Source: Draconibacterium sp. (lineage in GTDB: Bacteria; Bacteroidota; Bacteroidia; Bacteroidales; Prolixibacteraceae). Taken from it: DNA of 64,000 nucleotides. Positions 31,652 through 48,393 of the stretch are shown here, in pieces. Within the stretch, counting starts at the first letter, position 1. Every line of letters starts with the position of its first letter. The stretch is taken from positions 12 to 64,011 of the forward strand of contig JBFXFM010000021.1 in NCBI GenBank assembly GCA_050179035.1, in the 5' to 3' direction. The notes under the pieces were generated by a model. It had not been told where the DNA came from and searched no databases. It saw only the letters and a program-made list of their open reading frames with translations. The translations under genes and the position numbers were made by a program.

Positions 31652-32713
31652 TTAAATTCCCATTGCATGAAGTGCCAGATAAACAAGCCCGGCAATCAGC
31701 ATACTCACTGGGATGGTCAGAATCCAGGCTACCAGCAGGTTCGACGCAACTCCCCAACGAACTGCCGAAAGACGTTTTGTCATACCCACACCCATAATTG
31801 AACCGGCAATGGTATGCGTTGTACTCACCGGAATTCCTAATCCTTGCGAAACACCAAAAAGTGTGATTGCACCGGCAGTTTCGGCAGCAACTCCTTCAAC
31901 CGGGGTCACTTTTGTGATTTTTGTGCCCATGGTTTTTACAATACGCCAGCCTCCCATCATTGTTCCCAACGAAATGGCTGCATAACACGAAATAGGAATC
32001 CATGCAGGTACATGTAAATGTTTTTTCCCGGCAGCATCAATGGTTTCCGATACATGTGCCCAATCAGGGATTGGTAATCCATCGATATTCAATTGGGCTA
32101 CATAAACAAGCATGGCCGCACTAATGATACCCACAACTTTCTGCGAGTCGCTGCCACCGTGCCCTAAACTGAATGCGCCGGATGATACAAGCTGTAATCG
32201 CTTGAACCATTTATTGGAATGGTGCGGGTTAGCCCGTCTGAAAGCCCACAAAATAACAATTGTTAACAGGTACGAGATAATCATACCAATTATTGGTGCC
32301 AGAAAAATAAAACCGATGGTTTTAAATATTACGGCCTGGTTAATCACTGTAAAAGTTCCGGTGTGTGCAACTGCTGCACCGGCAAAACCGCCTATAAGTG
32401 TATGCGACGAAGAAGATGGAATTCCAAAATACCAGGTGAGCAGGTTCCAGATAATGGCAGCAATAATACCTGCAAGAATAACCTGTAAGTTGATGACACC
32501 GCCGTCAACAGTTTTTGCAACTGTGTTTGCCACTTTCAGGTCGAAAATCCAATAGGCCATAAAGTTGAAAAAGGCTGCCCAGATCACGGCGGGCAGGGGA
32601 GCCAGAACTTTGGTGGAAACAACAGTGGCAATTGAGTTGGCTGCGTCATGAAAACCATTGATGAGGTCGAACACAAATGCCAAAACTATGATGATAATTA
32701 GCAATGTAAGCAT
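31652..32713 (-). CDS. Inorganic phosphate transporter (PiT family)
   Basis: NGFHDAANSIAT, GIPSSSSH, SLGHGGSDSQK, GIPVSTTH. Confidence 0.95.
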   Translation of the reverse strand: MLTLLIIIIVLAFVFDLINGFHDAANSIATVVSTKVLAPLPAVIWAAFFNFMAYWIFDLKVANTVAKTVDGGVINLQVILAGIIAAIIWNLLTWYFGIPSSSSHTLIGGFAGAAVAHTGTFTVINQAVIFKTIGFIFLAPIIGMIISYLLTIVILWAFRRANPHHSNKWFKRLQLVSSGAFSLGHGGSDSQKVVGIISAAMLVYVAQLNIDGLPIPDWAHVSETIDAAGKKHLHVPAWIPISCYAAISLGTMMGGWRIVKTMGTKITKVTPVEGVAAETAGAITLFGVSQGLGIPVSTTHTIAGSIMGVGMTKRLSAVRWGVASNLLVAWILTIPVSMLIAGLVYLALHAMGI

Positions 32714-32753
32714 AATCAGAATTTATTATTTCTAAACTTTTTGCTGAATAACA

Positions 32754-33407
32754 TCAGGCATATTTAACCAGAATGGTTTTCACCACATCGGCAACGTCTT
32801 CAATTTTGTTGGCAATTTTTTCAAAATTCAGCAGAATTTCCTTTTGCTTTATCAATTCAATCGGGTCTTTTTCGTTTTCAAAAAGCCCCGAAATAGCTTT
32901 GTGGTAAAGTTCATCCACGCGGCTTTCCATTTTGTGAATTTCTTTACAGGTTTTTAAAACCTTGTCAGCCTTTTTTGTGTCGTCCAATCCGCCTACAGCT
33001 ACTTTTATCAATTGGCTGCCCTGAGATATTTGTGTAGCCATTTCTTTCATAAAGCTGCTGAAGTTATTACAACGGTAAATTTCAATTTTACCCGAAGTTC
33101 CATAAATCAGGTCAACCACATCGTCGATGGTTGAAGTTAACTCATGAATATCTTCCCTATCGAAAGGGGTTATAAATGAACGATTTAACTCATCAAATAT
33201 CTTGTTAGTAAACTCATCGCCTTTTTTCTCGATGGCTTTAATTGTCAACCCAACTGTTAAACGCTCCTCGAGTGTTGGTGCATTAATCAGTTTTTCGAGT
33301 GCGGCCGATGCTTCAATTGTGTTTTCGGCTGCCTGGTTAAACATGGCATAAAATTTTTTCTCTTTCGGGGTAAAATACTTAAGTAAACCTGAAATATCCA
33401 TATGCAA
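32754..33407 (-). CDS. DUF47 (PhoU-like) phosphate transport regulator
   Basis: IEKKGD, FITPFDREDI, LDD.VD, ME..VD, IEDVAD. Confidence 0.93.
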   Translation of the reverse strand: MHMDISGLLKYFTPKEKKFYAMFNQAAENTIEASAALEKLINAPTLEERLTVGLTIKAIEKKGDEFTNKIFDELNRSFITPFDREDIHELTSTIDDVVDLIYGTSGKIEIYRCNNFSSFMKEMATQISQGSQLIKVAVGGLDDTKKADKVLKTCKEIHKMESRVDELYHKAISGLFENEKDPIELIKQKEILLNFEKIANKIEDVADVVKTILVKYA

Positions 33408-34676: not shown

Positions 34677-37601
34677 TTAATTTATCCTGTATGATAATGA
34701 GACGGTGTAGGTACGTCCCAGTTCGTATTGCTGGTATAAATAATCGTTGTTGTTGTATTTAACAGCTTTTTTAAATGCCGAATCGAGGATGTTGTTTACT
34801 TTAAATCCGAGGGTAAAATTGCGTAATACAGTTTTTGTAATGTTAAAATTCATCATTCCTTCGGTCGATTCATAAATGTCGGGTGTATCAATATTTGTCT
34901 CGGTCATCCGATCGCCAAATTTGTTGTAATCGAGTGTCGAGTTTAACCCTATTTCGGAATTTGAGTAGCTTAAATTTACATTTACAAGGTATGGCGACTG
35001 GCCAGGGAATGGTCTGGTTTTTTTAACCTCCCAGCCGTTGTTGGCAGCAGTTTCCTGTTCAAATTTGTTCACATCAACTTTCGAATCGATGAATGAAAAA
35101 TTGAGACCAAAACTAAAATCACGCAAACCATCAGCAATAAAATCGAGGTTTTTACGCGCTTCTAATTCAATTCCGGCAAGCTTACCTGTTTCGGAATTCT
35201 GATATTGAATTTGAGGATTTGGAACTTCGATAAGGTATTGCAGTACAATGGGGTTACTAAATTGTTTGTAATATGCGCTAACCGCAAACAACTCGCCAGG
35301 CCTTACAAACCATTCCCAACGGAGGTCGTAATTATTGATTTCGGTTCGTTTAAGGTTTGGGTTACCATTGTAAATTACACCACCAATAAAGTCGAACGAA
35401 GCAAAAGGCGCAAGTTCCCGCAGGTTGGGACGGGCAATGGTTTTACTGGCCGATGCTCTTACATTCATCGTTTCGGATAGTGCAAACACCAGGTTTACCG
35501 AGGGCAGCAGGTCTTTTTCATCAATTTCTCCTTCATAGTCGGCCAGATTCTCATCCGGAATGTATGAGAGCGCCACTACTTTTTCTCTGGGTTGCAGTTT
35601 CACTGACATGTAGGTGGTTTCGTAACGGGCTCCTACAATTGCCTTGAATTTTGGAGTGAAGTTGTAGGTTACCATTGCATACAAGGCATTAATATCGGTG
35701 GTTCCGAGATAATTGTTCTGATGTTTGGTTTGGTTGTACAAATAGTTGCCAATAATGTTTCTGTCTCTGGAATCAACTCCGATTATCCCTGTATTTGCAG
35801 GTCCGAAGTATTGATCTGAATTTCCGCCATAAGAAGTTCCTTTGTCGCGTTCGTACTGGTAAATGGTTTCAAAGAAATTACGCTCTTTGGTTGAATAAAG
35901 TCCGCCAAGCTTTATTTTGTTTGAACTGTTTTTTGATTGAAGAAATGGAATTGTGATGTCAATTTTTCCCTGTAACTGTTCGTCTTTTAATTCGCGCCAG
36001 AAATGAAAAGGCATATCGTATTCAGCCCTCGACATATAATATCCTGTGGTGTCATTATTTTCATCAAGTCGGTATGAGTTGGCGAAAAGCCGCATATCGG
36101 GTTCGTATTGTTTTGAAACGATTTTACTCCCACTGTAATCAATGCGGGTATTGTTCAGTCCCACGAAATTATGGTGTCCACTGATTTTGCCCATCTGCAT
36201 TTCGCGTTCGGTAAAACTCAGTGAGCGGGTTTGGAAGCGGGTATCGCCCGAAAGTGCAGCGGGGAAAACCCCATCCTGAAAACGTGCTGACTTCTCTGCA
36301 TCGTGGTTGTATGAATAGTTGATTTCAACTGAACCATTGTTGCTGTATTTAAAAGCCAATGTTGAAAGCCCGGTAATTTGCGGATTCTCGGTGGCTTTGG
36401 TGTCGTTCAGTATATAGTTTTCGCCCAATGCTTCAGCTCCGGCCTGAACAAGTTCCCAGTTGGCCGAAACGCCATCGCGGTAGTACGAAAAATTGCGGCG
36501 GTAATTTACACCCATAACAAAACCAATTTGTTTGTTGCGAAATACCTGCCATTGGTTACCAATTGAAAAAGCCACTTTCTGGTCGAGTGGGGCTGTCATT
36601 TCGGAGGGTGACATTTGAGAATTTACCGAACGGGCTGCATCATGGAGCAATGCTGCTTCATTTGGATATTTATCGCCCTGACGTGCTTTAATGTAGAGGT
36701 TTGTTGTTAACTCCCCGCCTCTGTCAACCAAAATACCCGGAATGTTGCGATATCCTTTGTCGTATCCAAGCCAATCGGTATTCGAACCCTGATAGGTTAA
36801 AAAGTCATTGTTAAAAGTTGATTGGTCGTTGTAGGCAGTGGAGATTTCAAAATTAAGCGTGAATTGTTCGGGGAAAGCTTTGGTTTTGATGTTCACATTT
36901 CCGCCGGTAAACGAACCAGGTAAGTCGGGAGTAAAAGTTTTTGAGGTGATAATGTTTTCGAGCAGGTTAGCAGGAATCAGGTCGAGGTCAGCAGAATTTT
37001 TATACGGATCAGTTCCGGGCAACTGCTGACCGTCCATTTGTACGCTTGAATAACGGTCGCCGAGTCCGCGAACAAATATGTCTTTGCCATTCATTACCGA
37101 AACGCCGGTAACTTTTATCATCGATTCGGCAGCATTCGAGCTTCCGAATCTTTTCATCTCAATCGAAGAAATCCCATCCTGTATTCCTTCAGCTTTTTTT
37201 TGCATGCTTAAAATGGCATTTTCGCTGTTGGTTAATTGTTTGGCCGTAATGGTAACTTCTGCAATTTCTTCAGTAGCTGGTGCCAACTGAATATTCATAA
37301 CTGTTACATCGCCGGGTTTTACTTCAATCCCTGAAATAGTTTGTGGTGCATACGAGATGTAACTAAAAACAAGAGTTACCATTCCTGAGGGCAGGTTTGG
37401 CAAGGTAAAATTACCATCGAAATCGGTAATTGTACCCGTTGTGGTTCCTTCAATAATAATGTTTACACCAATTAGGGTTTCCCCCGATTTTGCATCTGTA
37501 ATGGTGCCTCGAACAGTTCCTTTGTCTTGCGAAAATATGTTTTGTGATGACAGAAAGATGAAGAAAAGGATACTGAGAATTTTTACCAACTGTGTTTTCA
37601 T
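34677..37601 (-). CDS. TonB-dependent receptor (TBDR-1), no adjacent SusD
   Basis: 974 aa; signal, NTE domain, plug FVRGLGDRY..DLIPANLLENII..KTFTPDLPG.FTGGNVNIKT; C-terminal SLSYRIN. Confidence 0.95.
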   Translation of the reverse strand: MKTQLVKILSILFFIFLSSQNIFSQDKGTVRGTITDAKSGETLIGVNIIIEGTTTGTITDFDGNFTLPNLPSGMVTLVFSYISYAPQTISGIEVKPGDVTVMNIQLAPATEEIAEVTITAKQLTNSENAILSMQKKAEGIQDGISSIEMKRFGSSNAAESMIKVTGVSVMNGKDIFVRGLGDRYSSVQMDGQQLPGTDPYKNSADLDLIPANLLENIITSKTFTPDLPGSFTGGNVNIKTKAFPEQFTLNFEISTAYNDQSTFNNDFLTYQGSNTDWLGYDKGYRNIPGILVDRGGELTTNLYIKARQGDKYPNEAALLHDAARSVNSQMSPSEMTAPLDQKVAFSIGNQWQVFRNKQIGFVMGVNYRRNFSYYRDGVSANWELVQAGAEALGENYILNDTKATENPQITGLSTLAFKYSNNGSVEINYSYNHDAEKSARFQDGVFPAALSGDTRFQTRSLSFTEREMQMGKISGHHNFVGLNNTRIDYSGSKIVSKQYEPDMRLFANSYRLDENNDTTGYYMSRAEYDMPFHFWRELKDEQLQGKIDITIPFLQSKNSSNKIKLGGLYSTKERNFFETIYQYERDKGTSYGGNSDQYFGPANTGIIGVDSRDRNIIGNYLYNQTKHQNNYLGTTDINALYAMVTYNFTPKFKAIVGARYETTYMSVKLQPREKVVALSYIPDENLADYEGEIDEKDLLPSVNLVFALSETMNVRASASKTIARPNLRELAPFASFDFIGGVIYNGNPNLKRTEINNYDLRWEWFVRPGELFAVSAYYKQFSNPIVLQYLIEVPNPQIQYQNSETGKLAGIELEARKNLDFIADGLRDFSFGLNFSFIDSKVDVNKFEQETAANNGWEVKKTRPFPGQSPYLVNVNLSYSNSEIGLNSTLDYNKFGDRMTETNIDTPDIYESTEGMMNFNITKTVLRNFTLGFKVNNILDSAFKKAVKYNNNDYLYQQYELGRTYTVSLSYRIN

Positions 37602-37627
37602 TAATTAATTATTTGTTAGTACTTAAA

Positions 37628-37666
37628 AAAAATACCCCCGGAGTATTTTACTCCGGGGGAAATTTT
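37628..37666 (-). terminator. Intra-operon hairpin between T9SS protein 1 and TBDR-1
   Basis: CCCCCGGAGTA-TTT-TACTCCGGGGG, flanked by an A-run and a T-run. Confidence 0.75.
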
Positions 37667-37681
37667 TATTTTATGTGTGAA

Positions 37682-40651
37682 TTATCTCACAATCATTTTG
37701 TTTACTGCTTTATTTTCACCGGCGTTGAGCTGGTAGAGATAAATACCTCTTTGCAAACCTGAAACATTAACCTTGTAAGTTCCTTTCTGCTGAGTTTCGC
37801 TTATCACCGATTTTACAATTTTACCTGTAACATCATAAACCATCAGGCTTACATTGGCCATTTCAGGAATGGTATATTCAATGGTTGTGGTTCCGTCAAA
37901 AGGATTCGGATAGTTTTGTTTCAATTCAAAACTGTTAATCCCCATTTCGTTAACCGAAACGTACAATTCGCCAAAATAGCCCATATTATCCAGAGCAGTC
38001 CACATTTTAGCCCAGTTTTCATGGCCAAACGCTCCTTTGTAAGCTGTTTCCTCTAATCCTGTGGTTACAAAAGCACCGGTAATCGGAGCTACATTTTCCC
38101 AGGCTGAACTTTGCGGATTCGGACGTGGGTCGAGTTTTCCATCGGCTTCGCGCGAAATTCCCGATATCATTGGGTTTGCTATGGTATTTGCGTTAGCAGT
38201 TAAGTGGTTAACAAGAAAAGCGCCTGTTACATCTTCGGCATCGCTTGTAACCTGAATCATTTTACCGGCAGCAAGTTCGTCGCCAGCACCAAAACCAAAC
38301 CAGATGTTATTTTTGAAAACGAGGTCGCCGTTTTCCATGTGTTTGCGTGAGTCGGTTCCTTTGTCGGCAGCGCGGTCTTCCACTTCAATAGCGCTGAAAG
38401 CAAATTCAGTAAAAATTGAGTTGGCATACATACCACCTGCTCCATCGCGCAACATTAAAGCCACGTCGCCTACATTTGAAGCGGTTCCCGGGCCAATGTA
38501 AGTAGCATTGAAAATTGTAGGTTTTGCAAATCTTGGGTTATCATCGGGGTGAGCGCCATCGTGTTCGCCACCTGAGCCTGCATCGTCAGTACCCTGAATT
38601 GCAAACCAGAACTGGCCACCGCCTCTCCATCCGTCGTCATAATCAAAAGCATCGTCGCCACAGAAAGCAGCAATGAGGTATTTTGTCATTACAGTACCAC
38701 CCCAGAATTCGAAACCATCATCAGAGTTGGCAAACACTTCCACGTTTTCGATTACGGTCTGGCTGCCAACACCGGCAACCGACAAACCGTTGATTTCGTT
38801 ACCTGGCGAGAGTTCAGCACCACCGTGGCGTATTGAAACATATTTGAAAACTCCTGTATTGTGAGTATCGTCGTCTCCGCCAAATTTGGCACGTTCTTCA
38901 CCAGCAGGGATACCTTCAATTGCAGATTCGGCAGCGGTGAACCCGATAACGCCTTTACCCAGAAGGATAACACCACCCCAAAGACCTCGGTCTTCGTGGG
39001 TTAAATCAGCAGGGTCGGTTAAATCATCATCTTCGGCAGTGAAGATAATCGGGAGTTCAGCAGTACCTTCGGCCATAATTTTGGCATCGCGTGTAATAAT
39101 CAGTGCCGAAGCATTGTCACCGGTTGTAGGTGTTGCTTTGGCTTTGATAACCGTTCCGGCATCAATTGTTAAAGTACCCGATTCGAGGAAAACAAAACCA
39201 TCGAGCAGGTAAGTTTTGTCTGCTGTCCAGTGTGCATCACCGGTTAAGGTAGCGTCGGTAACCAATACTTCAGTTCCGCCGGCAGAGAAATCAAGATCCC
39301 CGAAATAACCCATTTTATCAAGTGCTGTCCAACCAAGCGCCCAGTTGGTTGAGCCAAAGGCTCCCCTGTAACTTGTGCTCATTATATTTTCATTGTCTGA
39401 AGAAGCAGAGCCGCTCCATGCCGGACTGCCGGCTGCAAGTCTTGGGTCGAGCTGACCATTAGCTTCACGGCTGATTCCGCGGAATTTTGGGTTTGCTATG
39501 GTATTTGCGTTAGCAGTTAAGTGGTTAACAAGAAAAGCGCCTGTTACATCTTCGGCATCGCTTGTAACCTGAATCATTTTACCGGCAGCAAGTTCGTCGC
39601 CAGCACCAAAACCAAACCAGATGTTATTTTTGAAAACGAGGTCGCCGTTTTCCATGTGTTTGCGTGAGTCGGTTCCTTTGTCGGCAGCGCGGTCTTCCAC
39701 TTCAATAGCGCTGAAAGCAAATTCAGTAAAAATTGAGTTGGCATACATACCACCTGCTCCATCGCGCAACATTAAAGCCACGTCGCCTACATTTGAAGCG
39801 GTTCCCGGGCCAATGTAAGTAGCATTGAAAATTGTAGGTTTTGCAAATCTTGGGTTATCATCGGGGTGAGCGCCATCGTGTTCGCCACCTGAGCCTGCAT
39901 CGTCAGTACCCTGAATTGCAAACCAGAACTGGCCACCGCCTCTCCATCCGTCGTCATAATCAAAAGCATCGTCGCCACAGAAAGCAGCAATGAGGTATTT
40001 TGTCATTACAGTACCACCCCAGAATTCGAAACCATCATCAGAGTTGGCAAACACTTCCACGTTTTCGATTACGGTCTGGCTGCCAACACCGGCAACCGAC
40101 AAACCGTTGATTTCGTTACCTGGCGAGAGTTCAGCACCACCGTGGCGTATTGAAACATATTTGAAAACTCCTGTATTGTGAGTATCGTCGTCTCCGCCAA
40201 ATTTGGCACGTTCTTCACCAGCAGGGATACCTTCAATTGCAGATTCGGCAGCGGTGAACCCGATAACGCCTTTACCCAGAAGGATAACACCACCCCAAAG
40301 ACCTCGGTCTTCGTGGGTTAAATCAGCAGGGTCGGTTAAATCATCATCTTCGGCAGTGAAGATAATCGGGAGTTCAGCAGTACCTTCGGCCATAATTTTG
40401 GCATCGCGTGTAATAATCAGTGCCGAAGCATTGTCACCGGTTGTAGGTGTTGCTTTGGCTTTGATAACCGTTCCGGCATCAATTGTTAAAGTACCCGATT
40501 CGAGGAAAACAAAACCATCGAGCAGGTAAGTTTTGTCTGCTGTCCAGTGTGCATCACCGGTTAAGGTGGCATCGGTAACAGTTATTATGGTTTGTGCATT
40601 CATTGCAAAAGCCATAATAAGAAAGGAAATCATTAAAGTAAATTTTCTCAT
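37682..40651 (-). CDS. T9SS-secreted protein 1: two tandem beta-helix-like domains + type-A CTD
   Basis: 989 aa; signal peptide; duplicated ~439-aa unit (TLTIDAGT, NEINGLSVAGVGSQT, DDGFEFWGG, DDAFDYDDG); CTD QNYPNPF..YDVTGK..GIYLYQL..KMIVR. Confidence 0.92.
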   Translation of the reverse strand: MRKFTLMISFLIMAFAMNAQTIITVTDATLTGDAHWTADKTYLLDGFVFLESGTLTIDAGTVIKAKATPTTGDNASALIITRDAKIMAEGTAELPIIFTAEDDDLTDPADLTHEDRGLWGGVILLGKGVIGFTAAESAIEGIPAGEERAKFGGDDDTHNTGVFKYVSIRHGGAELSPGNEINGLSVAGVGSQTVIENVEVFANSDDGFEFWGGTVMTKYLIAAFCGDDAFDYDDGWRGGGQFWFAIQGTDDAGSGGEHDGAHPDDNPRFAKPTIFNATYIGPGTASNVGDVALMLRDGAGGMYANSIFTEFAFSAIEVEDRAADKGTDSRKHMENGDLVFKNNIWFGFGAGDELAAGKMIQVTSDAEDVTGAFLVNHLTANANTIANPKFRGISREANGQLDPRLAAGSPAWSGSASSDNENIMSTSYRGAFGSTNWALGWTALDKMGYFGDLDFSAGGTEVLVTDATLTGDAHWTADKTYLLDGFVFLESGTLTIDAGTVIKAKATPTTGDNASALIITRDAKIMAEGTAELPIIFTAEDDDLTDPADLTHEDRGLWGGVILLGKGVIGFTAAESAIEGIPAGEERAKFGGDDDTHNTGVFKYVSIRHGGAELSPGNEINGLSVAGVGSQTVIENVEVFANSDDGFEFWGGTVMTKYLIAAFCGDDAFDYDDGWRGGGQFWFAIQGTDDAGSGGEHDGAHPDDNPRFAKPTIFNATYIGPGTASNVGDVALMLRDGAGGMYANSIFTEFAFSAIEVEDRAADKGTDSRKHMENGDLVFKNNIWFGFGAGDELAAGKMIQVTSDAEDVTGAFLVNHLTANANTIANPMISGISREADGKLDPRPNPQSSAWENVAPITGAFVTTGLEETAYKGAFGHENWAKMWTALDNMGYFGELYVSVNEMGINSFELKQNYPNPFDGTTTIEYTIPEMANVSLMVYDVTGKIVKSVISETQQKGTYKVNVSGLQRGIYLYQLNAGENKAVNKMIVR
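38170..39250. repeat. Copy B of the 1081-bp intragenic direct repeat
   Basis: Offset 1317 bp from copy A; six pairs of shadow ORFs in different frames translate identically; boundaries read by eye. Confidence 0.92.
39487..40567. repeat. Copy A of the 1081-bp intragenic direct repeat
   Basis: Matches 38170-39250; first mismatches at 39486/38169 and 40568/39251. Confidence 0.92.
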
Positions 40652-40890: not shown

Positions 40891-42651
40891 CTACCTTTTT
40901 GCCAGCGTAAACAGGAACTCGACACCACCGGTTTCGCGGTTACGCACCGAGATATCGCCTTTGTGCAACTGAACTGCGTTTTTTACGATAGCCAGCCCCA
41001 GTCCGGTTCCTCCGGCTTCGCGGGTGCGGCCATGGTCAACCCGGTAAAACCTTTCAAAAATCCGCGAAAGGTGTTCTTCCGGAATTCCGGCGCCCGTGTC
41101 GGAATACGAGAAATAGTAGTATTTATCGTCTTCGTGATAAACTTTTATCTGTATAGAAATTCCTTTTCCACCGTAATTGATCGAGTTTTCCACAAGGTTT
41201 TGGAAAACCGAGAAAAGCAGCGATTCGTTACCATTTATAATTGTATTTTCAGGGATTTCGGTTGTAAATCTGATGTTTTTTTCATCAATCCGGTTGGCAA
41301 AATTCTGGTAAACTTCTTCGATGAGGGTTTTCAAATCAGTTAGTTTAAACCTGAAAAGTTCTCCCGCGTCTTCAATGTTTGTCAGCAACGAAACATCGTT
41401 TATCAGGTGGGTGAGGCGCTGCGACTGCAAGTATGCTTTTTCAAGAAAATAGCGTTGTTTTTCAGCCGAAACAGGCCTGTTTTCCAATATTGTCTCAAGA
41501 TATCCTTTAATTGACGCCAACGGAGTTTTCAACTCGTGGGCAATGTTCGAAGTGAGTTGCTGTTTCATCAGCCTTCGCTTTTCGAGCCGGGTGATATCTG
41601 TAATCACGACTTCGAAACTAAGGTCGGGGAAAATGATGCTTTGTACTTTTAGAAATTTTTCGCCTTTTGAAATAGTAAACTCCGACTGTTGCAGATTTTC
41701 TGACGAACTGTTGGTAATTGACGGATTTTCTACAAACCGGGTTAGTTCGGCAAACTCTTCCATTTTGAAAATGTGCTCGGGTACAGTAACTTTTTTGTCG
41801 GATATCGAATTGAGGTACTGAATAAAATAGCGGTTCGAAAGTGTTTTTTGTTTTCCGGGCGAAAAGAAAGCGATGCCTTCGTTTAGCGCATTCAGATGGC
41901 TTAGCAGTTTTTCGCGTTCGGTGGCCAACTCGTCCTTGGTTTTTTTCAGGTCACTATAAATAGCAATAATTTGCGAACCAATCGTTCCCAGTTCGTTACC
42001 CGGAAATTCGGTAACCGTGTCAATCTGTTCTTTTTTACCAGCTTTTACTGCAAAATCGCGGAGCTTTGTAATGGCGTCGGCCATACGCGAAGTAATGAAA
42101 AACAATACAATACCAATAATGGAAAATGCAGCTACAATAAAAAAGATGTAATATCGCTCCGTCTTCAGAAAATTCTGGACCTGAACGTCGTAAACAACCG
42201 CTGTACGTACAAAAAAGTGACTGTATTTTTTGGCGTAATAGTAATAAACTTCATTTGTTGTATCCGAGAGGCGGATATTGGCTCCTGATTTGTGTTTAAA
42301 GGCTTTGTCAATTTCAGGTCGGTGGAGGTGGTTTTCCATGGTTCGGTAATTCTCAACCGAACTGTCGAAAATTACTTCGCCATTCAGCATAATAACAGTA
42401 ATTCTCAGGTGTTCCTGCGGAATTATTTCCTTTAATCCCGTAATGCGACTCATTTGGTTTTGTCTAACCAAATCGTTCTTTTCAATAAATAAAGCGGTGA
42501 TTTCGGTAATATTATCGAGCGTATTTTCCAACTGCCGGGTGCGGAATTTTTTCTCGCGTTCGTACTGAAATGCCAGCACGGATGCCGTAAACAAAAAGAA
42601 AACCACAATGTAGTAGAGAAAAATTTTTCCCCTGAAGGAATTTGAATTCAC
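40891..42651 (-). CDS. PhoR-like sensor histidine kinase
   Basis: 586 aa; two TMs; TSNIAHELKTPLASIKGYLET, NLVENSINY, DTGAGIP..RIFERFYRVD..R.REAGGTGLGL. Confidence 0.9.
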   Translation of the reverse strand: MNSNSFRGKIFLYYIVVFFLFTASVLAFQYEREKKFRTRQLENTLDNITEITALFIEKNDLVRQNQMSRITGLKEIIPQEHLRITVIMLNGEVIFDSSVENYRTMENHLHRPEIDKAFKHKSGANIRLSDTTNEVYYYYAKKYSHFFVRTAVVYDVQVQNFLKTERYYIFFIVAAFSIIGIVLFFITSRMADAITKLRDFAVKAGKKEQIDTVTEFPGNELGTIGSQIIAIYSDLKKTKDELATEREKLLSHLNALNEGIAFFSPGKQKTLSNRYFIQYLNSISDKKVTVPEHIFKMEEFAELTRFVENPSITNSSSENLQQSEFTISKGEKFLKVQSIIFPDLSFEVVITDITRLEKRRLMKQQLTSNIAHELKTPLASIKGYLETILENRPVSAEKQRYFLEKAYLQSQRLTHLINDVSLLTNIEDAGELFRFKLTDLKTLIEEVYQNFANRIDEKNIRFTTEIPENTIINGNESLLFSVFQNLVENSINYGGKGISIQIKVYHEDDKYYYFSYSDTGAGIPEEHLSRIFERFYRVDHGRTREAGGTGLGLAIVKNAVQLHKGDISVRNRETGGVEFLFTLAKR

Positions 42652-42666
42652 ACTTGTATTTTTGAA

Positions 42667-43353
42667 CTATTCAATATTTACAAAGCTGTAGCCGTACCCC
42701 GATTTGCCTTTTATATTATCGCTGTACTGGCCTATTTTCCTGCGCAAACGGGCAATATTCACATCCACATTGCGGTCGGTAACAATCACATCGTAATTCC
42801 AGATGCTTTTCAGAATTTCCTCGCGGCTGATGTATTTTCCCATATTTTTTACAAGCAATACAAGAATTTCGTACTCTTTGCGGGTGAGGTTAACTGGTAT
42901 GCCTTCAATCAGTGTTTCCTTTTTATCAGGGTTGATTTTCAGGTCGCGGTAAACCATCTGGTTACTTTCTTTTTCGGGTTTGGTACCTCTTTTCAAGATC
43001 GCTTTTATTCGGGCAATAATTTCCTTTATTGAAAAGGGTTTCGAGATGTAATCGTCGGCACCCACATTAAAACCGGTGAGAATGTCGTTTTCTTCGGTTT
43101 TGGCGGTAAGAAAAATAATAGGGATTTCAAGTTTTTTTTCTTTCCGTATCACATTGGCAACCTTGAAACCAGAGATTCCACCCATCATTACATCAAGCAG
43201 AATGAGGTCGAATTCCTCAAGTGGTTTTTTCAGTGCATCTTCGCCAGAGTGGGCAATATCAATGTCGAAACCTTCGCTTTCAAGATTAAATTCAAGAATT
43301 TCGCAAAGGTCTTTTTCGTCGTCAACGATCAGTATTTTTTTCTTCGATTCCAT
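42667..43353 (-). CDS. PhoB/PhoP-like OmpR-family response regulator
   Basis: 228 aa; IVDDE, LLDVMM, FLTAK, DDYISKPF; wHTH LTRKEYEIL..RNVDVNIARLRRKI. Confidence 0.92.
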   Translation of the reverse strand: MESKKKILIVDDEKDLCEILEFNLESEGFDIDIAHSGEDALKKPLEEFDLILLDVMMGGISGFKVANVIRKEKKLEIPIIFLTAKTEENDILTGFNVGADDYISKPFSIKEIIARIKAILKRGTKPEKESNQMVYRDLKINPDKKETLIEGIPVNLTRKEYEILVLLVKNMGKYISREEILKSIWNYDVIVTDRNVDVNIARLRRKIGQYSDNIKGKSGYGYSFVNIE

Positions 43354-43580: not shown

Positions 43581-44576
43581 ATGAAGCGATATCTACTGTT
43601 CCTGTTATTGACTTTATTCCCCGCATTTCTTTATTCCCAACCCGCTGAATTTGTTCCTTCCGGCAAACCATTTGCTACCATTTTCGCCAACTTCCACCAG
43701 GGAATTACAGGTTCGGCAAAAGAGGAAGCTGCTTTCGAACTTGTGCGCGGGTACATTGGATACGAGTACAATTTCAGTCCTGAATTTTACGCAAAAATCA
43801 ATGTGGATGTTGGAAGCCCAAACGACCTTTCGCCCTACTCGAAAGCGCGTCGTTATGCATATTTTAAAAATGCCTATTTGCGCTACATGAAAAAAGGGCT
43901 TACCATCGATTTCGGGTTAATTGATATGCGCCAGTTTAAGTTGCAGGAAGCAGTATGGGAACGCCGCTACCTTATGAAATCACTTGCCGATGAATACCAG
44001 CTTGGGCAGTCAGCCGACCTTGGAATGAACGTAAACTACAAATTTACAAACTGGATTGATGCCGATTTTTCTGTTTCCAACGGCGAAGGGTACAGCAGCA
44101 TTCAAATGGACGATGTGTTTAAATATGGAATCGGCTCAACAATTACATTACCTGAAGATTTTACCTCGCGAATCTTTTATGAATTCACCAAAAAGGAAAT
44201 CACCGAAACCACGCTAACTCTTTTTACTTCGTACGACTTTAAAAAGATTTGGAATATCGCGGGTGAAGCGGTGATGAGGCAAAACGACAAGTGGAAAGAG
44301 AACCAAAATATTTTTGGCTGGTCGGTATATGCAAAATACAACCTTACAAAAAAATACCAGCTTTTTGCACGTTACGACCGCGTAACATCTAATATTCTTA
44401 AAGACGAAATCAACCCGTGGAATCTGGCGAATGACGGAACTGCGCTTGTTGCCGGAATCCAGTTTCAGCCCATCAGCAAAATTAAAATGGCACTCAATTA
44501 CCACGACTGGTATCCGCTGGCTGCCAACATGGAAGGCGGTGGTTTTATTTATTTCGATGTTGAAGTAAAACTGTAA
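43581..44576 (+). CDS. Outer-membrane porin (possibly phosphate-selective OprO/P-like)
   Basis: 331 aa; signal peptide; amphipathic beta-strands; AYFKNAYL; C-terminal YFDVEVKL. Substrate inferred from context only. Confidence 0.7.
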   Translation: MKRYLLFLLLTLFPAFLYSQPAEFVPSGKPFATIFANFHQGITGSAKEEAAFELVRGYIGYEYNFSPEFYAKINVDVGSPNDLSPYSKARRYAYFKNAYLRYMKKGLTIDFGLIDMRQFKLQEAVWERRYLMKSLADEYQLGQSADLGMNVNYKFTNWIDADFSVSNGEGYSSIQMDDVFKYGIGSTITLPEDFTSRIFYEFTKKEITETTLTLFTSYDFKKIWNIAGEAVMRQNDKWKENQNIFGWSVYAKYNLTKKYQLFARYDRVTSNILKDEINPWNLANDGTALVAGIQFQPISKIKMALNYHDWYPLAANMEGGGFIYFDVEVKL

Positions 44577-44586
44577 ACAGCCAGCC

Positions 44587-45897
44587 ATGAAAAGAAATTT
44601 TATTCTGATATCTGCATTTATTTTAATGTTAGTTAGCTGCCGAAAAAGTGATTATGAGCTCGAAACCAGCGGCAATAATATTGTTGACAATGGTGCCGGA
44701 ACCGGAACTGTTACCTGGACAAAAGACAAAGAATATGTAATTGAAGGTTTTGTTTTTGTAAACGACGGGCAAACACTTACCATTGAACCTGGAACCGTGG
44801 TGCGCTTTGCAGCCGGTGAAGGTGAAAATGCCAGTGCGTTGATTGTTTCGCGTGGAGGTAAAATTATGGCCGAAGGAACTGCCGATGAACCCATTATTTT
44901 TACAGCAGAATCAGACGACCTGATTCTTTCGGTGGAAAAAGAAAAAAGGGGTTTATGGGGCGGATTGATGATTCTTGGAAATGCCCCGATTAACGTAAAA
45001 GGCGGCGAATCGACAATCGAAGGTATTCCTTTCTCAGAGCCGCGCGGTGTGTTTGGCGGGCCCGACGAAAACGACGATTCGGGTGTTCTGAAATATGTTT
45101 CAATTCGCCATGGAGGAACAAACATTGGCGATGGCAACGAAATTAACGGACTTACACTGGGCGGCGTAGGCAGCAAAACTATCGTCGATTATGTTGAAAT
45201 TATTTCGAATGAAGACGATGGAGTTGAAATTTTTGGCGGCACTGTAAACCTGAAACACATGGCGGTTTCGGGTTGTGGCGACGATGCTTTCGACTACGAT
45301 TTGGGCTGGAATGGAAAAGGGCAGTTCTGGCTCGCTGTTCAGAATGATAATCTTGGCGACCAGATTATTGAGGCTGGTGGCGGAACCGACCCTGTAATTG
45401 GTACGCCAAATTCACTTCCCAATATATTCAATGTTACCCTTGTTGGCAACGGAAATAATGGAGATGGCGGATGTGTGAAATTTTTTAATTACGCCGGAGG
45501 AAATATTGCCAACTCGGTTATTATCAACAATAATCACGGTATTTTGCTCGAAGTTACCGATGCCCAGCACGACAGTTACGCACAGTGGCTGCAAGGGAAA
45601 CTTGAGGTGAAGAACAATGTTTTTTACGATGTGGCATCTTCAACACCGGCAACAGTTTTTTCACTCACCGGTTTTTATTCGACCGACCAGCAAACTTTAT
45701 GGTCCAACAGTTTTGTCACTTCTAAAAACGAATTCACCAATCCGAACATGGATTGGAAAAACGGTGATTATTTGCCAAATCCGAAATTGCAGGGGAACAT
45801 GGCAGAATACCCCGATTCATGGTTTCAGGTTGTAAATTTTAAGGGCGCGTTTGGCGAAAGTAATTGGATTGAAGGCTGGACTTTGCTTGCAGAATAA
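44587..45897 (+). CDS. Lipoprotein carrying one copy of the same beta-helix-like domain as T9SS protein 1
   Basis: Lipobox LVSC followed by RKSDYELE; TLTIEPGT, NEINGLTLGGVGSKT, DDGVEIFGG, DDAFDYDLG. Confidence 0.9.
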   Translation: MKRNFILISAFILMLVSCRKSDYELETSGNNIVDNGAGTGTVTWTKDKEYVIEGFVFVNDGQTLTIEPGTVVRFAAGEGENASALIVSRGGKIMAEGTADEPIIFTAESDDLILSVEKEKRGLWGGLMILGNAPINVKGGESTIEGIPFSEPRGVFGGPDENDDSGVLKYVSIRHGGTNIGDGNEINGLTLGGVGSKTIVDYVEIISNEDDGVEIFGGTVNLKHMAVSGCGDDAFDYDLGWNGKGQFWLAVQNDNLGDQIIEAGGGTDPVIGTPNSLPNIFNVTLVGNGNNGDGGCVKFFNYAGGNIANSVIINNNHGILLEVTDAQHDSYAQWLQGKLEVKNNVFYDVASSTPATVFSLTGFYSTDQQTLWSNSFVTSKNEFTNPNMDWKNGDYLPNPKLQGNMAEYPDSWFQVVNFKGAFGESNWIEGWTLLAE

Positions 45898-46553: not shown

Positions 46554-46719
46554 ATCTGGCGCACCTCTCATAATCTGAAAGTAGTTTGAAATACAGGTGC
46601 TGACAACCGGTTTTTTCAGATTTACAAGTTGAGGCAGGATGTTCAAAAATCTAAGGCAAAACTTCAGCCTAAATCAGGTGAATGATTGTAAACCGTTTTT
46701 TGTATTTTTAAGAAAAAAA

Positions 46720-47256
46720 ATGATGAGACTTTTATCCTTGCTTTTCATTATAATTCTGGCCACCGGTTGCCAAACCGAAAACAGAAAGGCTGAACCCTCG
46801 CAAAAACGAAGCCACCCGAGCCATCGGTACAATTATGTAACTGTCGATACAACAACATTGAATTATTTCGAAACCGACTACCTGCCGGTTTACTCCGATA
46901 TTTATTATGAGAATGGCACACAGCGGTTCCCGATTACAGCCACTGTGAGTTTGCGCAACACTTCGCTTACCGATTCGGCGTATGTACTTTCGGCCCGATA
47001 TTACGACTCGTATGGTAAAATGCTTCACGTTTATATCGATTCCACCTTGTTGCTGTCGCCACTTGAGTCGGTTGAACTGGTAGTTGAAGAAGGTGAAAAA
47101 GCAGGTGGAGCCGGCGCTAATTTTATCATCGAATGGGCGGCTGCCAAATACACCAACCAGATGCTGATTCAATCGGTAATGATTAGCACGTACGGGCAGC
47201 AGGGCGTTTCATTTCTTTCGGAAGCGAAGGTTATTCAACGGAAAAACCGGGAATGA
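46720..47256 (+). CDS. DUF3124 lipoprotein
   Basis: Lipobox ATGC; YLPVYSDIY, TVSLRNT, RYYDSYG, GGAGANFIIEW, IQSVMI. Confidence 0.85.
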   Translation: MMRLLSLLFIIILATGCQTENRKAEPSQKRSHPSHRYNYVTVDTTTLNYFETDYLPVYSDIYYENGTQRFPITATVSLRNTSLTDSAYVLSARYYDSYGKMLHVYIDSTLLLSPLESVELVVEEGEKAGGAGANFIIEWAAAKYTNQMLIQSVMISTYGQQGVSFLSEAKVIQRKNRE

Positions 47257-47259
47257 TTT

Positions 47260-48393
47260 TTATTGTTCCAGATTCAACACTTTTGCAATTTCTGCCCACG
47301 AAATGTATTTGTAGTTCTGGCTTTTCTTTTTCCTTCCGTCGTAATTAAAACCATCCTGCACCACCAGCATTCCCTGCGGAAATCCGGGCAAAGCAACCGT
47401 GGTAATATCCAATCCGTCGGTTTCTTCAACACCATCAACAACTCCATCAGTAATCCTGAAACTGCCCAGATATTTGTTTTCTCCCTGCCGTTCGAAAACT
47501 GCGTACGAAAAGTTTCCCTGCGATGAGGCTACCAGGTAGCCATTTAGACTGTCGGTTGCATAAATCGCCAGTCCTTCAATATCGTATTTTATATTCAGAT
47601 TTTCTTCGGAGCTTTTTTGTATGAATTTCCCCTCGGTTGAACCCTCGGGTTCGGCGTCAAATTTCCAAATTCCGGCCTGTTCTTCACCGATGTAAAGGAT
47701 TCCGGTTTCGTCGTCGGCTACCATTCCTTCGGTTTGGGTGCCAATTTTCAGTGAGCGAACCAGTTTTGCATCAACTTTATTTTCGGCAGCAAAAAGTTCG
47801 TATTGTTCCACTTCGCCCGATTTGCCGTTTACAAAAACATAAAACAGCCCGGTTTTTTTACTTCGGTACATGCACAAACCATACACTTCGTCGCTCATGG
47901 CCGATTTGATAATACGGTTGTGTACCGAGTCGAGCCCACCATTTTCAACTATTCTGAAAAGTGAAACCGATTGCATGGTACGGTTGCTGGCAGCGAGAAT
48001 ATCGATGGTGTCGCCATTCAGCGGAAAACCGTAACGCAGGTCGCAATTGTTCATATCGCCGGTGGCGTAATAGTTGAGTTGTTTTCCGGTTAAATCGTAA
48101 GTTGCGAGTCCGCCTTTTTTATCGGTCCCGATAATTACTGATTTTTCAGGGTTTTGAGGATGAATCCAAATTGCCGGGTCATCAGCCGAATCGTCGTTTT
48201 TTCCGCGCGGTGTTGGTTCGGTTTCAATACTTGCGGCAACCAGATTCTTAATGTGTTCGCCTGCTTTGCGCGAGCCTTCGCCAGGGCGGTTACACGAATT
48301 AAATGTTATCAAAACAAACAGCCCGATAAACAGGCTGGTTGTTCCAGGGAATATTTTCATTTCTTTCATCGGTATTTTTGAATCAATTTTCAT
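47260..48393 (-). CDS. Beta-propeller phytase (3-phytase), lipoprotein
   Basis: DSADDPAIWIHP, IIGTDKKGGL, MNNCDLR, YGLCMY, TQTEGMVAD, YIGEE..GIWK, DIEGL, ETDGLD, VVQDG; lipobox FNSC; the true start may lie ~33 bp inside the ORF. Confidence 0.93.
   Translation of the reverse strand: MKIDSKIPMKEMKIFPGTTSLFIGLFVLITFNSCNRPGEGSRKAGEHIKNLVAASIETEPTPRGKNDDSADDPAIWIHPQNPEKSVIIGTDKKGGLATYDLTGKQLNYYATGDMNNCDLRYGFPLNGDTIDILAASNRTMQSVSLFRIVENGGLDSVHNRIIKSAMSDEVYGLCMYRSKKTGLFYVFVNGKSGEVEQYELFAAENKVDAKLVRSLKIGTQTEGMVADDETGILYIGEEQAGIWKFDAEPEGSTEGKFIQKSSEENLNIKYDIEGLAIYATDSLNGYLVASSQGNFSYAVFERQGENKYLGSFRITDGVVDGVEETDGLDITTVALPGFPQGMLVVQDGFNYDGRKKKSQNYKYISWAEIAKVLNLEQ

What the first reader, a model, noticed from the sequence alone, without database searches (positions are those of the whole stretch)
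38170..40567. Apparently perfect 1081-bp intragenic duplication with diverged flanks in T9SS protein 1
Seen: 39487-40567 and 38170-39250 (offset 1317 bp, in frame) appear nucleotide-identical, since six shadow-ORF pairs in other frames translate identically. The remaining ~236 bp of each 439-aa unit is clearly diverged (NPKFRGISREANGQLDPRLAAGSPAW.. vs NPMISGISREADGKLDPRPNPQSSAW..). Inference: an older duplication whose core was recently homogenised by gene conversion, and a ready substrate for RecA-mediated copy-number change. An assembly artefact (consensus copied into both units) is the main alternative.
Basis: partly seen in the sequence, partly recalled or inferred. Interest (0 to 1): 0.7.

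Follow-up and report, generated by a model that had tools for sequence, protein, structure and literature searches.

The report
Homogenised tandem repeat in phosphate-locus surface protein
A secreted two-module protein in a phosphate-scavenging gene cluster of a Prolixibacteraceae bacterium has two old modules whose 1.08-kb cores have been made identical by recombination, a real but familiar kind of repeat evolution that recurs across this protein family.

Summary
Window 38170-39250 and 39487-40567 are identical over 1081 nt, at an in-frame offset of 1317 nt. Both lie in one gene (37682-40651, minus strand, 989 aa): signal peptide, two ~439-aa right-handed beta-helix units, and a type IX secretion (T9SS) C-terminal domain.

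The two-unit structure is not an artefact. k=31 assemblies of ten public metagenome runs break at the repeat edges. They give a 1081-nt node at about twice flank depth and a 296-nt linker node at about flank depth.

The duplication is old:
- The linker and the terminal tail are saturated at synonymous sites.
- The linker groups with linkers, and the tail with tails, of syntenic 3-unit orthologues (91% bootstrap).
- A sister species carries an orthologous linker.
- Cores are identical within the genome but have dS 0.70 against the sister species.

This is concerted evolution by gene conversion or unequal recombination. It is family-wide, and other lineages carry 905-1257-nt perfect repeats. One-unit alleles are firm in the sister species and only apparent in this one.

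Caveat: two core sites differ among independent assemblies, so one or two masked differences between the copies cannot be excluded.

The units probably belong to the phosphate-starvation-induced beta-helix partners of TonB-dependent transporters (TBDTs), the ElpS/BT4056/FII group. This is a new member of a known kind, of moderate interest.

The parts
37682..40651 (-). Gene for a 989-aa T9SS cargo protein: signal peptide, beta-helix unit 1, linker, beta-helix unit 2, tail, C-terminal sorting domain.
   Evidence: ORF list and translation. AlphaFold2 model with mean pLDDT 90.2 shows two beta-helix units plus a C-terminal beta-sandwich, with low-confidence hinges at aa 454-456 and 896-906.
40589..40651 (-). 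Signal peptide (aa 1-21, MRKFTLMISFLIMAFAMNAQT).
   Evidence: Read from the translation. Helix at aa 2-16 in the model.
39487..40567 (-). Identical core, copy in unit 1 (aa 29-389).
   Evidence: 0 mismatches over 1081 nt against 38170-39250.
39251..39486 (-). Inter-unit linker (aa 390-467). It is the diverged C-terminal part of unit 1 plus a hinge, and is positionally orthologous to the internal linkers of 3-unit orthologues.
   Evidence: A separate 296-nt node at about 1x depth in X1-X6, X9 and X11, and a 241-nt fragment in X10. An ~82% identical counterpart occurs in sister-species runs X27 and X28.
38170..39250 (-). Identical core, copy in unit 2 (aa 468-828).
   Evidence: A 1081-nt k-mer node at about 2x depth in X1-X6.
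37934..38169 (-). Terminal tail of unit 2 (aa 829-906). It is homologous to the linker but 56% nt identical. It is orthologous to the tail of the single-unit relatives and to the last unit of the 3-unit orthologues.
37685..37912 (-). T9SS type A C-terminal sorting domain (aa 914-989).
   Evidence: PF18962 at 52.1 bits (cut-off 27) and TIGR04183 at 48.4 bits (cut-off 23).
37635..37659 (-). Strong terminator-like hairpin (11-bp stem, 8 GC pairs, T run) between this gene and the TonB-dependent receptor gene.
34677..37601 (-). TonB-dependent receptor (CarboxypepD_reg + Plug + barrel) directly downstream. It is the conserved neighbour of this family.
   Evidence: The same neighbour is present in L014, L016 and L018.
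40891..43353 (-). phoB (42667-43353) and phoR (40891-42651) directly upstream on the same strand.
   Evidence: NCBIfam Bacteroidota PhoB (316.9 bits) and PhoR (673 bits) equivalogs.
43581..45897 (+). Divergently transcribed pair. A 331-aa outer-membrane porin-like protein, and a 436-aa single-unit beta-helix paralogue (40% identical to the unit) with a lipoprotein signal (…LVSC).
   Evidence: tblastn and translations. The same pair is present in syntenic locus L014, where the 436-aa protein carries PF28492 Beta_helix_4.

Best explanation
The gene encodes a T9SS-exported protein made of two tandem ~439-aa right-handed beta-helix modules. The tandem arrangement is old, at least as old as the split from lineages that now carry three units at the same locus. 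The first ~360 codons of the two modules have been copied onto one another by homologous recombination so recently that no difference is visible over 1081 nt. The event was non-reciprocal gene conversion, or possibly rounds of unequal crossing-over.

The tract stops within a few bases of where unit homology begins on the N-terminal side. On the C-terminal side it stops where the linker and tail are already about 45% diverged. These are places where a heteroduplex can no longer extend, so the boundary sustains itself.

The same identical repeats are substrates for recombinational loss of one unit, giving N-flank + core + tail with no novel junction. Such one-unit alleles exist in nature.

Shown: the identity, its boundaries, the age contrast, the independent recovery of the structure, the family-wide pattern, and the 1-unit/2-unit polymorphism in the sister species.

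Inferred: the molecular mechanism (RecA-type recombination), the direction of conversion, and the function. The proposed function is a phosphate-starvation-induced, surface-exposed substrate-capturing or -processing partner of the adjacent TonB-dependent transporter.
For: Identity and boundaries.

Real architecture. Runs X1-X6 each give a 1081-nt node at about 2x depth, a 296-nt linker node at about 1x, and distinct N-flank and tail contigs. At 83x in X6 the core is 148.7, the linker 81.1 and the flanks 80.6-83.1. X9-X11 show the linker node and the same break points. The method can detect unequal copies: in X8 paired variant contigs of about 8-9x each appear inside the core.

Old duplication. 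Linker against tail has dN 0.50 and saturated dS. The tails-versus-linkers split has 91% bootstrap, and Q-linker plus Q-tail are sisters in 0 of 500 replicates. The syntenic orthologue has 3 units. An orthologous linker occurs in the sister species.

Concerted evolution. Core dS is 0.70 against the sister species, with dN/dS 0.04, versus 0 between the copies. The core tree groups units by protein. Across 117 multi-unit homologues, within-protein unit identity is 70-98% against 40-60% between proteins. In the core, the nearest unit belongs to the same protein in 237 of 295 cases, against 92 of 292 for the linker/tail. The identity profile falls in the last 80 aa across the family.

Recurrence. 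Perfect intragenic repeats of 1136 nt (L016), 1257 nt (L099), 1040 nt (L124) and 905 nt (L113) occur in other lineages, while L014 and L018 units are only 77-79% identical.

Copy-number alleles. P0014, P0048 and P0085 equal N-flank + core + tail, and 550 aa = 989 - 439. X25 (287x) and X29 give one contig through the gene. X27 and X28 break at the core edges and hold linker-type contigs. X7 has a contig that skips exactly 1317 nt.

Function context: with PMC8115612 and bioRxiv 10.1101/2023.03.17.533168.
Against: Exact identity is not independently proven. Sites 38912/40229 and 38966/40283 are called A,G in the window and X2-X4, G,G in X1 and G,A in X5-X6. X3-X6 share the same flank haplotype. 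This fits strain SNPs fixed in both copies, but equally fits real differences between the copies that bubble popping hid.

The X7 one-unit contig is weak. Its mean depth (10.4 against 7.6 next door) is what a collapsed 2x core with a clipped low-coverage linker would give.

All three closest relatives are single-unit. A single-unit ancestor with later acquisition of the linker by recombination with a foreign allele is therefore not strictly excluded.

Gene conversion and unequal crossing-over cannot be told apart from sequence.

Homology to ElpS, BT4056 or Fjoh_0546 was not tested by sequence. No expression or biochemical data exist for this gene.
Confidence: 0.8

Rival explanations
1. Assembly artefact. 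The assembler collapsed two similar units and wrote one consensus twice, or created the second unit outright.
For: The window's sequencing technology is unknown. De Bruijn assemblers traverse a collapsed node twice and pop SNP bubbles. Two core sites are called differently by independent assemblies that share the same flanks. Many family members with perfect repeats are short-read MAGs.
Against: The linker, with both of its junctions into the core, is recovered as its own node at about 1x depth in X1-X6, X9 and X11, and in part in X10. In X1-X6 the core is one 1081-nt node at about 2x. Where the copies really differ (X8), the same pipeline keeps both variants. The linker has the sequence expected of an inter-unit linker and has orthologues elsewhere. 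At most one or two isolated SNPs could be hidden.
Confidence: 0.07
2. A recent simple tandem duplication of a single-unit gene, with no ancient two-unit stage. The single-unit state of the three closest relatives would then be ancestral.
For: P0014 (93%), P0048 (85%) and P0085 (79%) are single-unit. X25 at 287x shows that the single-unit form is genuine in the sister species.
Against: A fresh duplication would make the whole 1317-nt unit identical. Instead the last 236 nt are 56% identical with saturated dS. The linker groups with the linkers of 3-unit orthologues, not with its own tail. The sister species also has a minority allele with an orthologous linker. Single-unit forms are exactly the product expected from recombination between the cores.
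Confidence: 0.05
3. Homogenisation through cycles of unequal crossing-over (expansion to three units, contraction to two), or through import of a unit from another strain's allele, rather than intrachromosomal gene conversion.
For: Unit number varies between 1, 2 and 3 among relatives. X8 looks like an inter-lineage recombinant. Its N-flank, unit-1 end and linker are identical to the window, but unit 2 and the tail are 4-7% diverged. In 3-unit proteins the two linkers are more alike (73%) than linker and tail (56%).
Against: Producing two identical cores with distinct linker and tail needs two crossovers, both at the extreme edges of the core. A single conversion tract needs one event. No run shows the 3x core and 2x linker depth expected of a 3-unit allele in this species.
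Confidence: 0.25

Closest known systems
Identical long tandem repeats in Gram-positive surface proteins: Cna B repeats and SasG/Aap G5-E repeats of Staphylococcus, alpha C/Rib of group B Streptococcus (own knowledge). Also the in-frame repeat recombination of Helicobacter cagY (PMC2194252).
   Same: In-frame tandem units within one exported or surface protein. The units are nearly or fully identical at the DNA level. The number of units differs between strains through homologous recombination with no novel junction.
   Different: Those units are small (about 80-190 aa) Ig-like or stalk modules in pathogens, often linked to immune escape. Here each unit is a 439-aa enzyme-like beta-helix in an environmental Bacteroidota bacterium. 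There are only 1-3 units. Only the core is homogenised, and the linker and tail stay old.
Bacterial concerted evolution by gene conversion between dispersed paralogues, such as tufA/tufB and rRNA operons (own knowledge). Recent long-read evidence in Mycobacterium tuberculosis (PMC12046097). Horizontal-versus-vertical repeat evolution (PMC5120217).
   Same: Paralogous copies are more alike within a genome than orthologues are between species. Synonymous sites are homogenised. The tract ends sharply at diverged flanks.
   Different: Here the copies are intragenic and adjacent, so the same recombination also changes unit number.
ElpS (Caulobacter), BT4056 (Bacteroides thetaiotaomicron) and Fjoh_0546/FI-FIII (Flavobacterium johnsoniae): phosphate-depletion-induced beta-helix outer-membrane lipoproteins next to TonB-dependent transporters, proposed as transporter 'lids' (PMC8115612; PMC2996285, as cited there; bioRxiv 10.1101/2023.03.17.533168).
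   Same: Pectin-lyase-like beta-helix fold. Immediate neighbour of a non-SusC TonB-dependent receptor. Location in the phoBR cluster, with a phytase/TBDR pair and PiT/PhoU nearby. A single-unit lipoprotein paralogue sits beside it.
   Different: The described members are single-unit lipoproteins. This gene has two units and is exported and anchored through a T9SS C-terminal domain instead of a lipobox. Sequence homology to the named proteins was not tested here.

Membership tests
T9SS type A cargo protein | C-terminal Por_Secre_tail sorting domain above the curated threshold | tested here: met
   PF18962 at 52.1 bits (cut-off 27) and TIGR04183 at 48.4 bits (cut-off 23), aa 914-989. Beta-sandwich in the model. 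Foldseek matches RemA-CTD in T9SS complexes (8gl6_D).
T9SS type A cargo protein | N-terminal Sec signal peptide | tested here: met
   MRKFTLMISFLIMAFAMNAQ, read from the translation. No predictor was run.
T9SS type A cargo protein | Host encodes the T9SS machinery | not tested
   Not searched in the window. The rest of the genome is not available.
Pfam PF28492 Beta_helix_4 | Match to the family HMM | tested here: inconclusive
   A scan of the local Pfam copy returned only the CTD for this protein, and PF28492 seems to be missing from that copy. Precomputed PF28492 hits are on record for all 120 listed homologues, including P0014 at 93% identity.
Pfam PF28492 Beta_helix_4 | Right-handed parallel beta-helix fold | tested here: met
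   AF2 pLDDT 90.2. The best PDB matches are beta-helix glycosidases, lyases and tailspikes, at E about 1e-4 only.
ElpS/BT4056/Fjoh_0546 (FI-FIII) TBDT-associated Pho-regulon beta-helix proteins | Adjacent to a non-SusC TonB-dependent transporter | tested here: met
   TBDR at 34677-37601, 80 nt downstream. The same arrangement occurs in L014, L016, L018 and L099.
ElpS/BT4056/Fjoh_0546 (FI-FIII) TBDT-associated Pho-regulon beta-helix proteins | Member of the Pho regulon or located in the phoBR cluster | tested here: inconclusive
   Located directly downstream of phoB-phoR, within an island with PiT/PhoU and a phytase plus TBDR. Induction by phosphate depletion cannot be tested here.
ElpS/BT4056/Fjoh_0546 (FI-FIII) TBDT-associated Pho-regulon beta-helix proteins | Outer-membrane lipoprotein (lipobox cysteine) | tested here: not met
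   This gene has a plain signal peptide and a T9SS CTD. The neighbouring 436-aa paralogue does have …LVSC.
ElpS/BT4056/Fjoh_0546 (FI-FIII) TBDT-associated Pho-regulon beta-helix proteins | Sequence homology to the named proteins | not tested
The genome scan returned only closer relatives.
Concerted evolution of intragenic tandem repeats by homologous recombination | Units more alike within a genome than orthologous units between species, including at synonymous sites | tested here: met
   0 of 1081 differences within the genome against dS 0.70 to the sister species. The pattern is family-wide.
Concerted evolution of intragenic tandem repeats by homologous recombination | Evidence that the duplication predates the homogenisation (mosaic ages, positional orthology of the unconverted parts) | tested here: met
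   Abrupt boundary. Saturated dS between linker and tail. Tails-versus-linkers split at 91% bootstrap. Orthologous linker in the sister species.
Concerted evolution of intragenic tandem repeats by homologous recombination | Copy-number variants with recombination-type junctions in natural populations | tested here: met
   Sister species: X25 and X29 are one-unit, and X27 and X28 hold one-unit plus a minority linker-bearing allele. Own species: only the low-depth X7 contig.
Concerted evolution of intragenic tandem repeats by homologous recombination | RecA dependence and measured conversion or deletion rate | not testable with these tools
   Needs genetics in a cultivated Draconibacterium or Prolixibacteraceae strain.

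The most novel reading that the evidence does not exclude
Tandem arrays of one to three TonB-transporter-associated beta-helix modules may be a selected, tunable device. Recurrent conversion would keep the modules identical in many Bacteroidota lineages and beyond. Recombinational gain and loss of modules would adjust the valency or reach of a T9SS-anchored phosphorus-scavenging protein. This would be a contingency-like locus in free-living environmental bacteria rather than in pathogens.
Probability: 0.15. Interest if true: 0.6.

Novelty: new member of a known kind. Interest (0 to 1): 0.35.

Why it matters
The locus is a clean natural example of intragenic concerted evolution. Its old, positionally orthologous linker and tail date the duplication independently of the homogenised core, and one-unit and two-unit alleles segregate in wild populations.

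There is a practical warning. Short-read assemblies of this widespread protein family can collapse the units or write them as perfectly identical, so unit counts and 'perfect' repeats in MAGs need long-read confirmation.

The finding also draws attention to multi-unit, T9SS-anchored versions of the uncharacterised beta-helix proteins that sit next to TonB-dependent transporters in phosphate regulons. Published work has so far described only single-unit lipoprotein forms.

Tried and rejected
- The repeat finder reported only a 300-nt family because of its reference-copy cap. A direct offset comparison was used instead.
- The local Pfam and NCBIfam scans name only the CTD. A sequence search of the PDB found nothing. 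Foldseek gave only generic beta-helix hits, so no enzymatic activity can be assigned.
- The first genome scan found only UBA8494 as a close relative.
- A scan with the paralogue alignment returned only Prolixibacteraceae and Bacteroidales relatives. It did not reach B. thetaiotaomicron, F. johnsoniae or Caulobacter, so homology to BT4056, Fjoh_0546 and ElpS remains untested.
- A scan with PhoR showed that the nearest Draconibacterium genomes carry a different cassette (TBDR followed by a 37%-identical 2-unit protein) at this position, not an orthologue.
- I first read the X7 contig as proof of a one-unit allele in this species. I downgraded it because its depth fits a collapsed core.
- I first read the core SNPs shared by both copies in X5 and X6 as direct proof of ongoing conversion. 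I downgraded this because bubble popping gives the same picture.
- No run with raw reads holds this sequence, so copy-specific phasing was impossible.
- The sigma-70 promoter scan was at background and does not apply to Bacteroidota.
Full report
**Observation.** A base-by-base comparison at offset 1317 shows one uninterrupted identical run, 38170-39250 = 39487-40567 (1081 nt). Both copies lie in ORF 37682-40651 on the minus strand (989 aa), and the offset is 439 codons.

In gene orientation, identity begins 6 nt inside the shared 'VTDATL' codons. Two synonymous differences precede it, and before those lie the signal peptide in unit 1 and the linker in unit 2. Identity ends abruptly after '…ANTIANP', where similarity falls from 100% to about 55-60%.

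**Anatomy.** The protein consists of:
- a signal peptide (aa 1-21);
- unit 1 (aa 22 to about 455);
- unit 2 (about 457-895);
- a T9SS type A sorting domain (aa 914-989; PF18962 52 bits, TIGR04183 48 bits).

An AlphaFold2 model built on 45 two-unit homologues has mean pLDDT 90.2. It shows two right-handed beta-helices, low-confidence hinges at aa 454-456 and 896-906, and a C-terminal beta-sandwich. Foldseek against the PDB gives only generic beta-helix glycosidases, lyases and tailspikes at E about 1e-4. A sequence search of the PDB gives nothing. Homologues carry the recent Pfam family PF28492 'Beta_helix_4'.

**Is the structure real?** Public metagenome runs from landfill, biofilm, wastewater, cave and subsurface studies hold this DNA at 99% identity or more.
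- In runs X1-X6, the k=31 contigs give a node of exactly 1081 nt at about twice flank depth and a 296-nt node (linker plus two 30-nt overlaps) at about flank depth.
- In X9-X11 the core is in pieces, but the linker node and the break points at the repeat edges are the same.
- At the highest depth (X6) the flanks are 80.6-83.1, the linker 81.1 and the core 148.7.
- The approach can see unequal copies. In X8 the core splits into paired variants of about 8-9x each, with shared stretches at about 15x. The tail exists only in a 4%-diverged form that runs on into the core, while the N-flank and linker are identical to the window. X8 is most simply one genome whose two cores differ by several percent, probably an inter-lineage recombinant.

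The two-unit architecture is therefore not an assembly artefact.

**Limit on 'perfect'.** These contigs are simplified, so isolated SNP bubbles can be popped even at equal frequency. This point about the assembler is my own knowledge.

Two core sites are called differently by different runs. At 38912/40229 and 38966/40283 the calls are:
- A,G in the window and in X2-X4;
- G,G in X1;
- G,A in X5 and X6.

X3-X6 share one flank haplotype. Either these are strain SNPs that now sit in both copies, which would be conversion caught in action, or the two copies really differ at one or two sites and every assembly, including the window's, hides it. No run with raw reads was available. I put exact identity at about 70% and identity of at least 99.8% at more than 95%.

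**Age of the duplication.** Three lines of evidence show it is old.
- The 236-nt linker against the corresponding tail has 56% nt identity, dN 0.50 and saturated dS.
- In a neighbour-joining tree of this segment (67 columns), the terminal tails of Q, P0014, P0048, P0085, P0001 and P0002 separate from all internal linkers with 91% bootstrap. Q's linker and tail are never sisters (0 of 500). Whether Q's linker matches linker 1 or linker 2 of the 3-unit proteins is unresolved (39%).
- P0002 lies in a fully syntenic locus: paralogue and porin-like gene, then PhoB, PhoR, a 3-unit T9SS protein, a TBDR and a MORN protein.

**Concerted evolution.** Against the sister species (UBA8494 Prolixibacteraceae, L001, 86-88% nt) the core has dS 0.70 and dN/dS 0.04. 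Between the two copies there is no difference over 1081 nt.

In the core tree, units group by protein rather than by position. Among the 117 multi-unit homologues of the 120 listed:
- units of one protein are 70-98% identical, while units of different proteins are 40-60% identical;
- the nearest core belongs to the same protein in 237 of 295 cases, against 92 of 292 for the linker/tail segment;
- within-protein identity is 0.85-0.92 over aa 120-340 and falls to 0.53-0.61 in the last 80 aa.

At the DNA level, homogenisation ranges from 77-79% identity (L014, L018) through 97-98% (L017, three units, linkers included) to perfect tracts of 1136 nt (L016). A distinct subfamily, 37% identical, occupies the same position in Draconibacterium and Mariniphaga genomes. 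It carries perfect repeats of 1257, 1040 and 905 nt.

The window is thus an extreme but typical member of a family in which tandem units are repeatedly homogenised.

**Copy-number change.** The three closest relatives (93, 85 and 79% identity) are single-unit and equal N-flank + core + tail + CTD. The lengths fit exactly: 550 aa = 989 - 439.

In the sister species the picture is firm.
- X25 (287x) and X29 give one contig straight through the gene, so the one-unit form is genuine.
- X27 and X28 break at the core edges, giving a 1076-nt core node.
- X27 and X28 also hold small contigs (301 nt at 5x; 120 nt at 11x) that lie on the window's linker at about 82% identity.
- A loose end in X27 reads '…SIESPKLRGI', which is the linker type.

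That species therefore carries both alleles, with a homogenised tract whose edges lie within about 15 nt of those in the window.

In the window's own species, X7 has a contig that skips exactly 1317 nt. Depth there is low, and the contig's mean depth (10.4 against 7.6 for its neighbour) is what a collapsed core with a clipped linker would give. I treat this as suggestive only. No run shows the 3x core and 2x linker depth expected of a three-unit allele.

**Mechanism.** The simplest account is a single non-reciprocal conversion tract, or several, covering the whole stretch of high homology. The tract stops where homology ends on the N side and where old divergence begins on the C side.

Unequal crossing-over certainly operates, since it explains the unit-number variants. 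But it would need two edge-placed exchanges to give this allele. The two mechanisms cannot be separated from sequence. The direction of conversion is unknown.

**Context and likely function.** On the minus strand the order is phoB, phoR, this gene, a strong terminator-like hairpin, a TonB-dependent receptor, a MORN protein, a PhoU-like protein and PiT. Divergently transcribed are a porin-like protein and a single-unit lipoprotein paralogue. Further on lie DUF3124 and a beta-propeller phytase with its own TBDR.

This mirrors the F. johnsoniae phoBR cluster. There a TBDT and the beta-helix 'hypothetical lipoprotein FII' (Fjoh_0546) are among the most strongly phosphate-depletion-induced exoproteins (PMC8115612). 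It also matches the BT4055/BT4056-ElpS pairing, proposed as a transporter plus its lid (bioRxiv 10.1101/2023.03.17.533168).

I infer that the units belong to this group and act at the cell surface to capture or process a phosphorus-containing substrate for the adjacent receptor. Sequence homology to the named proteins, and regulation by phosphate, were not tested.

**Verdict.** The phenomenon is a known kind: concerted evolution and unit-number variation of tandem repeats in exported bacterial proteins. It appears here in a new setting, with large beta-helix modules in a T9SS cargo protein of a phosphate regulon in environmental Bacteroidota. Interest is moderate.

Noticed in passing
window 29398-51274: A phosphorus-acquisition island. 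It contains PiT plus a PhoU-like protein (31652-33407), a TBDR, the two-unit T9SS protein, PhoR/PhoB, a porin-like 331-aa protein plus a lipoprotein beta-helix paralogue (43581-45897), DUF3124 (46639-47256), and a beta-propeller phytase (47260-48393) with a second TBDR (48401-51274).
   Followed up: partly
window 37635-37659 (-): A strong terminator-like hairpin (11-bp stem, 8 GC pairs, T run) lies between the stop of the T9SS gene and the start of the TBDR gene. The two genes may not be simply co-transcribed.
   Followed up: no
L099 12267-18121; L113; L124: In the nearest Draconibacterium and Mariniphaga genomes the segment after phoR is a different cassette in the opposite order. A TBDR comes first, followed by a 977-aa two-unit T9SS beta-helix protein that is only 37% identical. 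That protein itself carries 905-1257-nt perfect intragenic repeats. This looks like cassette replacement at a conserved locus.
   Followed up: partly
run X8 laid on window 37589-40567: A natural mosaic allele. The N-flank, the start of the unit-1 side and the linker are identical to the window. Unit 2, the tail and the downstream DNA are 4-7% diverged, with identical and diverged core segments alternating. It looks like an inter-lineage recombinant with non-homogenised cores.
   Followed up: partly
window 38912/40229 and 38966/40283: These two core positions are called differently in independent assemblies of near-identical strains: A,G; G,G; or G,A. They are either SNPs fixed in both copies or differences between the copies that assembly masked.
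   Followed up: partly
L001 13-181 and 4530-4696: The UBA8494 contig holds further stretches 69-73% identical to the core, upstream of its single-unit gene. More paralogues of the beta-helix unit therefore lie nearby.
   Followed up: no
L008, L009 (Shewanella), L003/L010/L011 (Verrucomicrobiota), L002 (Melioribacter): Relatives of the unit occur well outside Bacteroidota, at 30-46% identity. Multi-unit forms are also labelled Acidobacteriota and Zixibacteria in the protein hits. The family, and its tandem-unit habit, are phylogenetically broad.
   Followed up: no
L016 6441-7203: Next to the two-unit gene and TBDR of L016 lies a large LRR-Roc-COR-TIR protein, which looks like a defence or signalling gene. 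It is unrelated to the finding.
   Followed up: no
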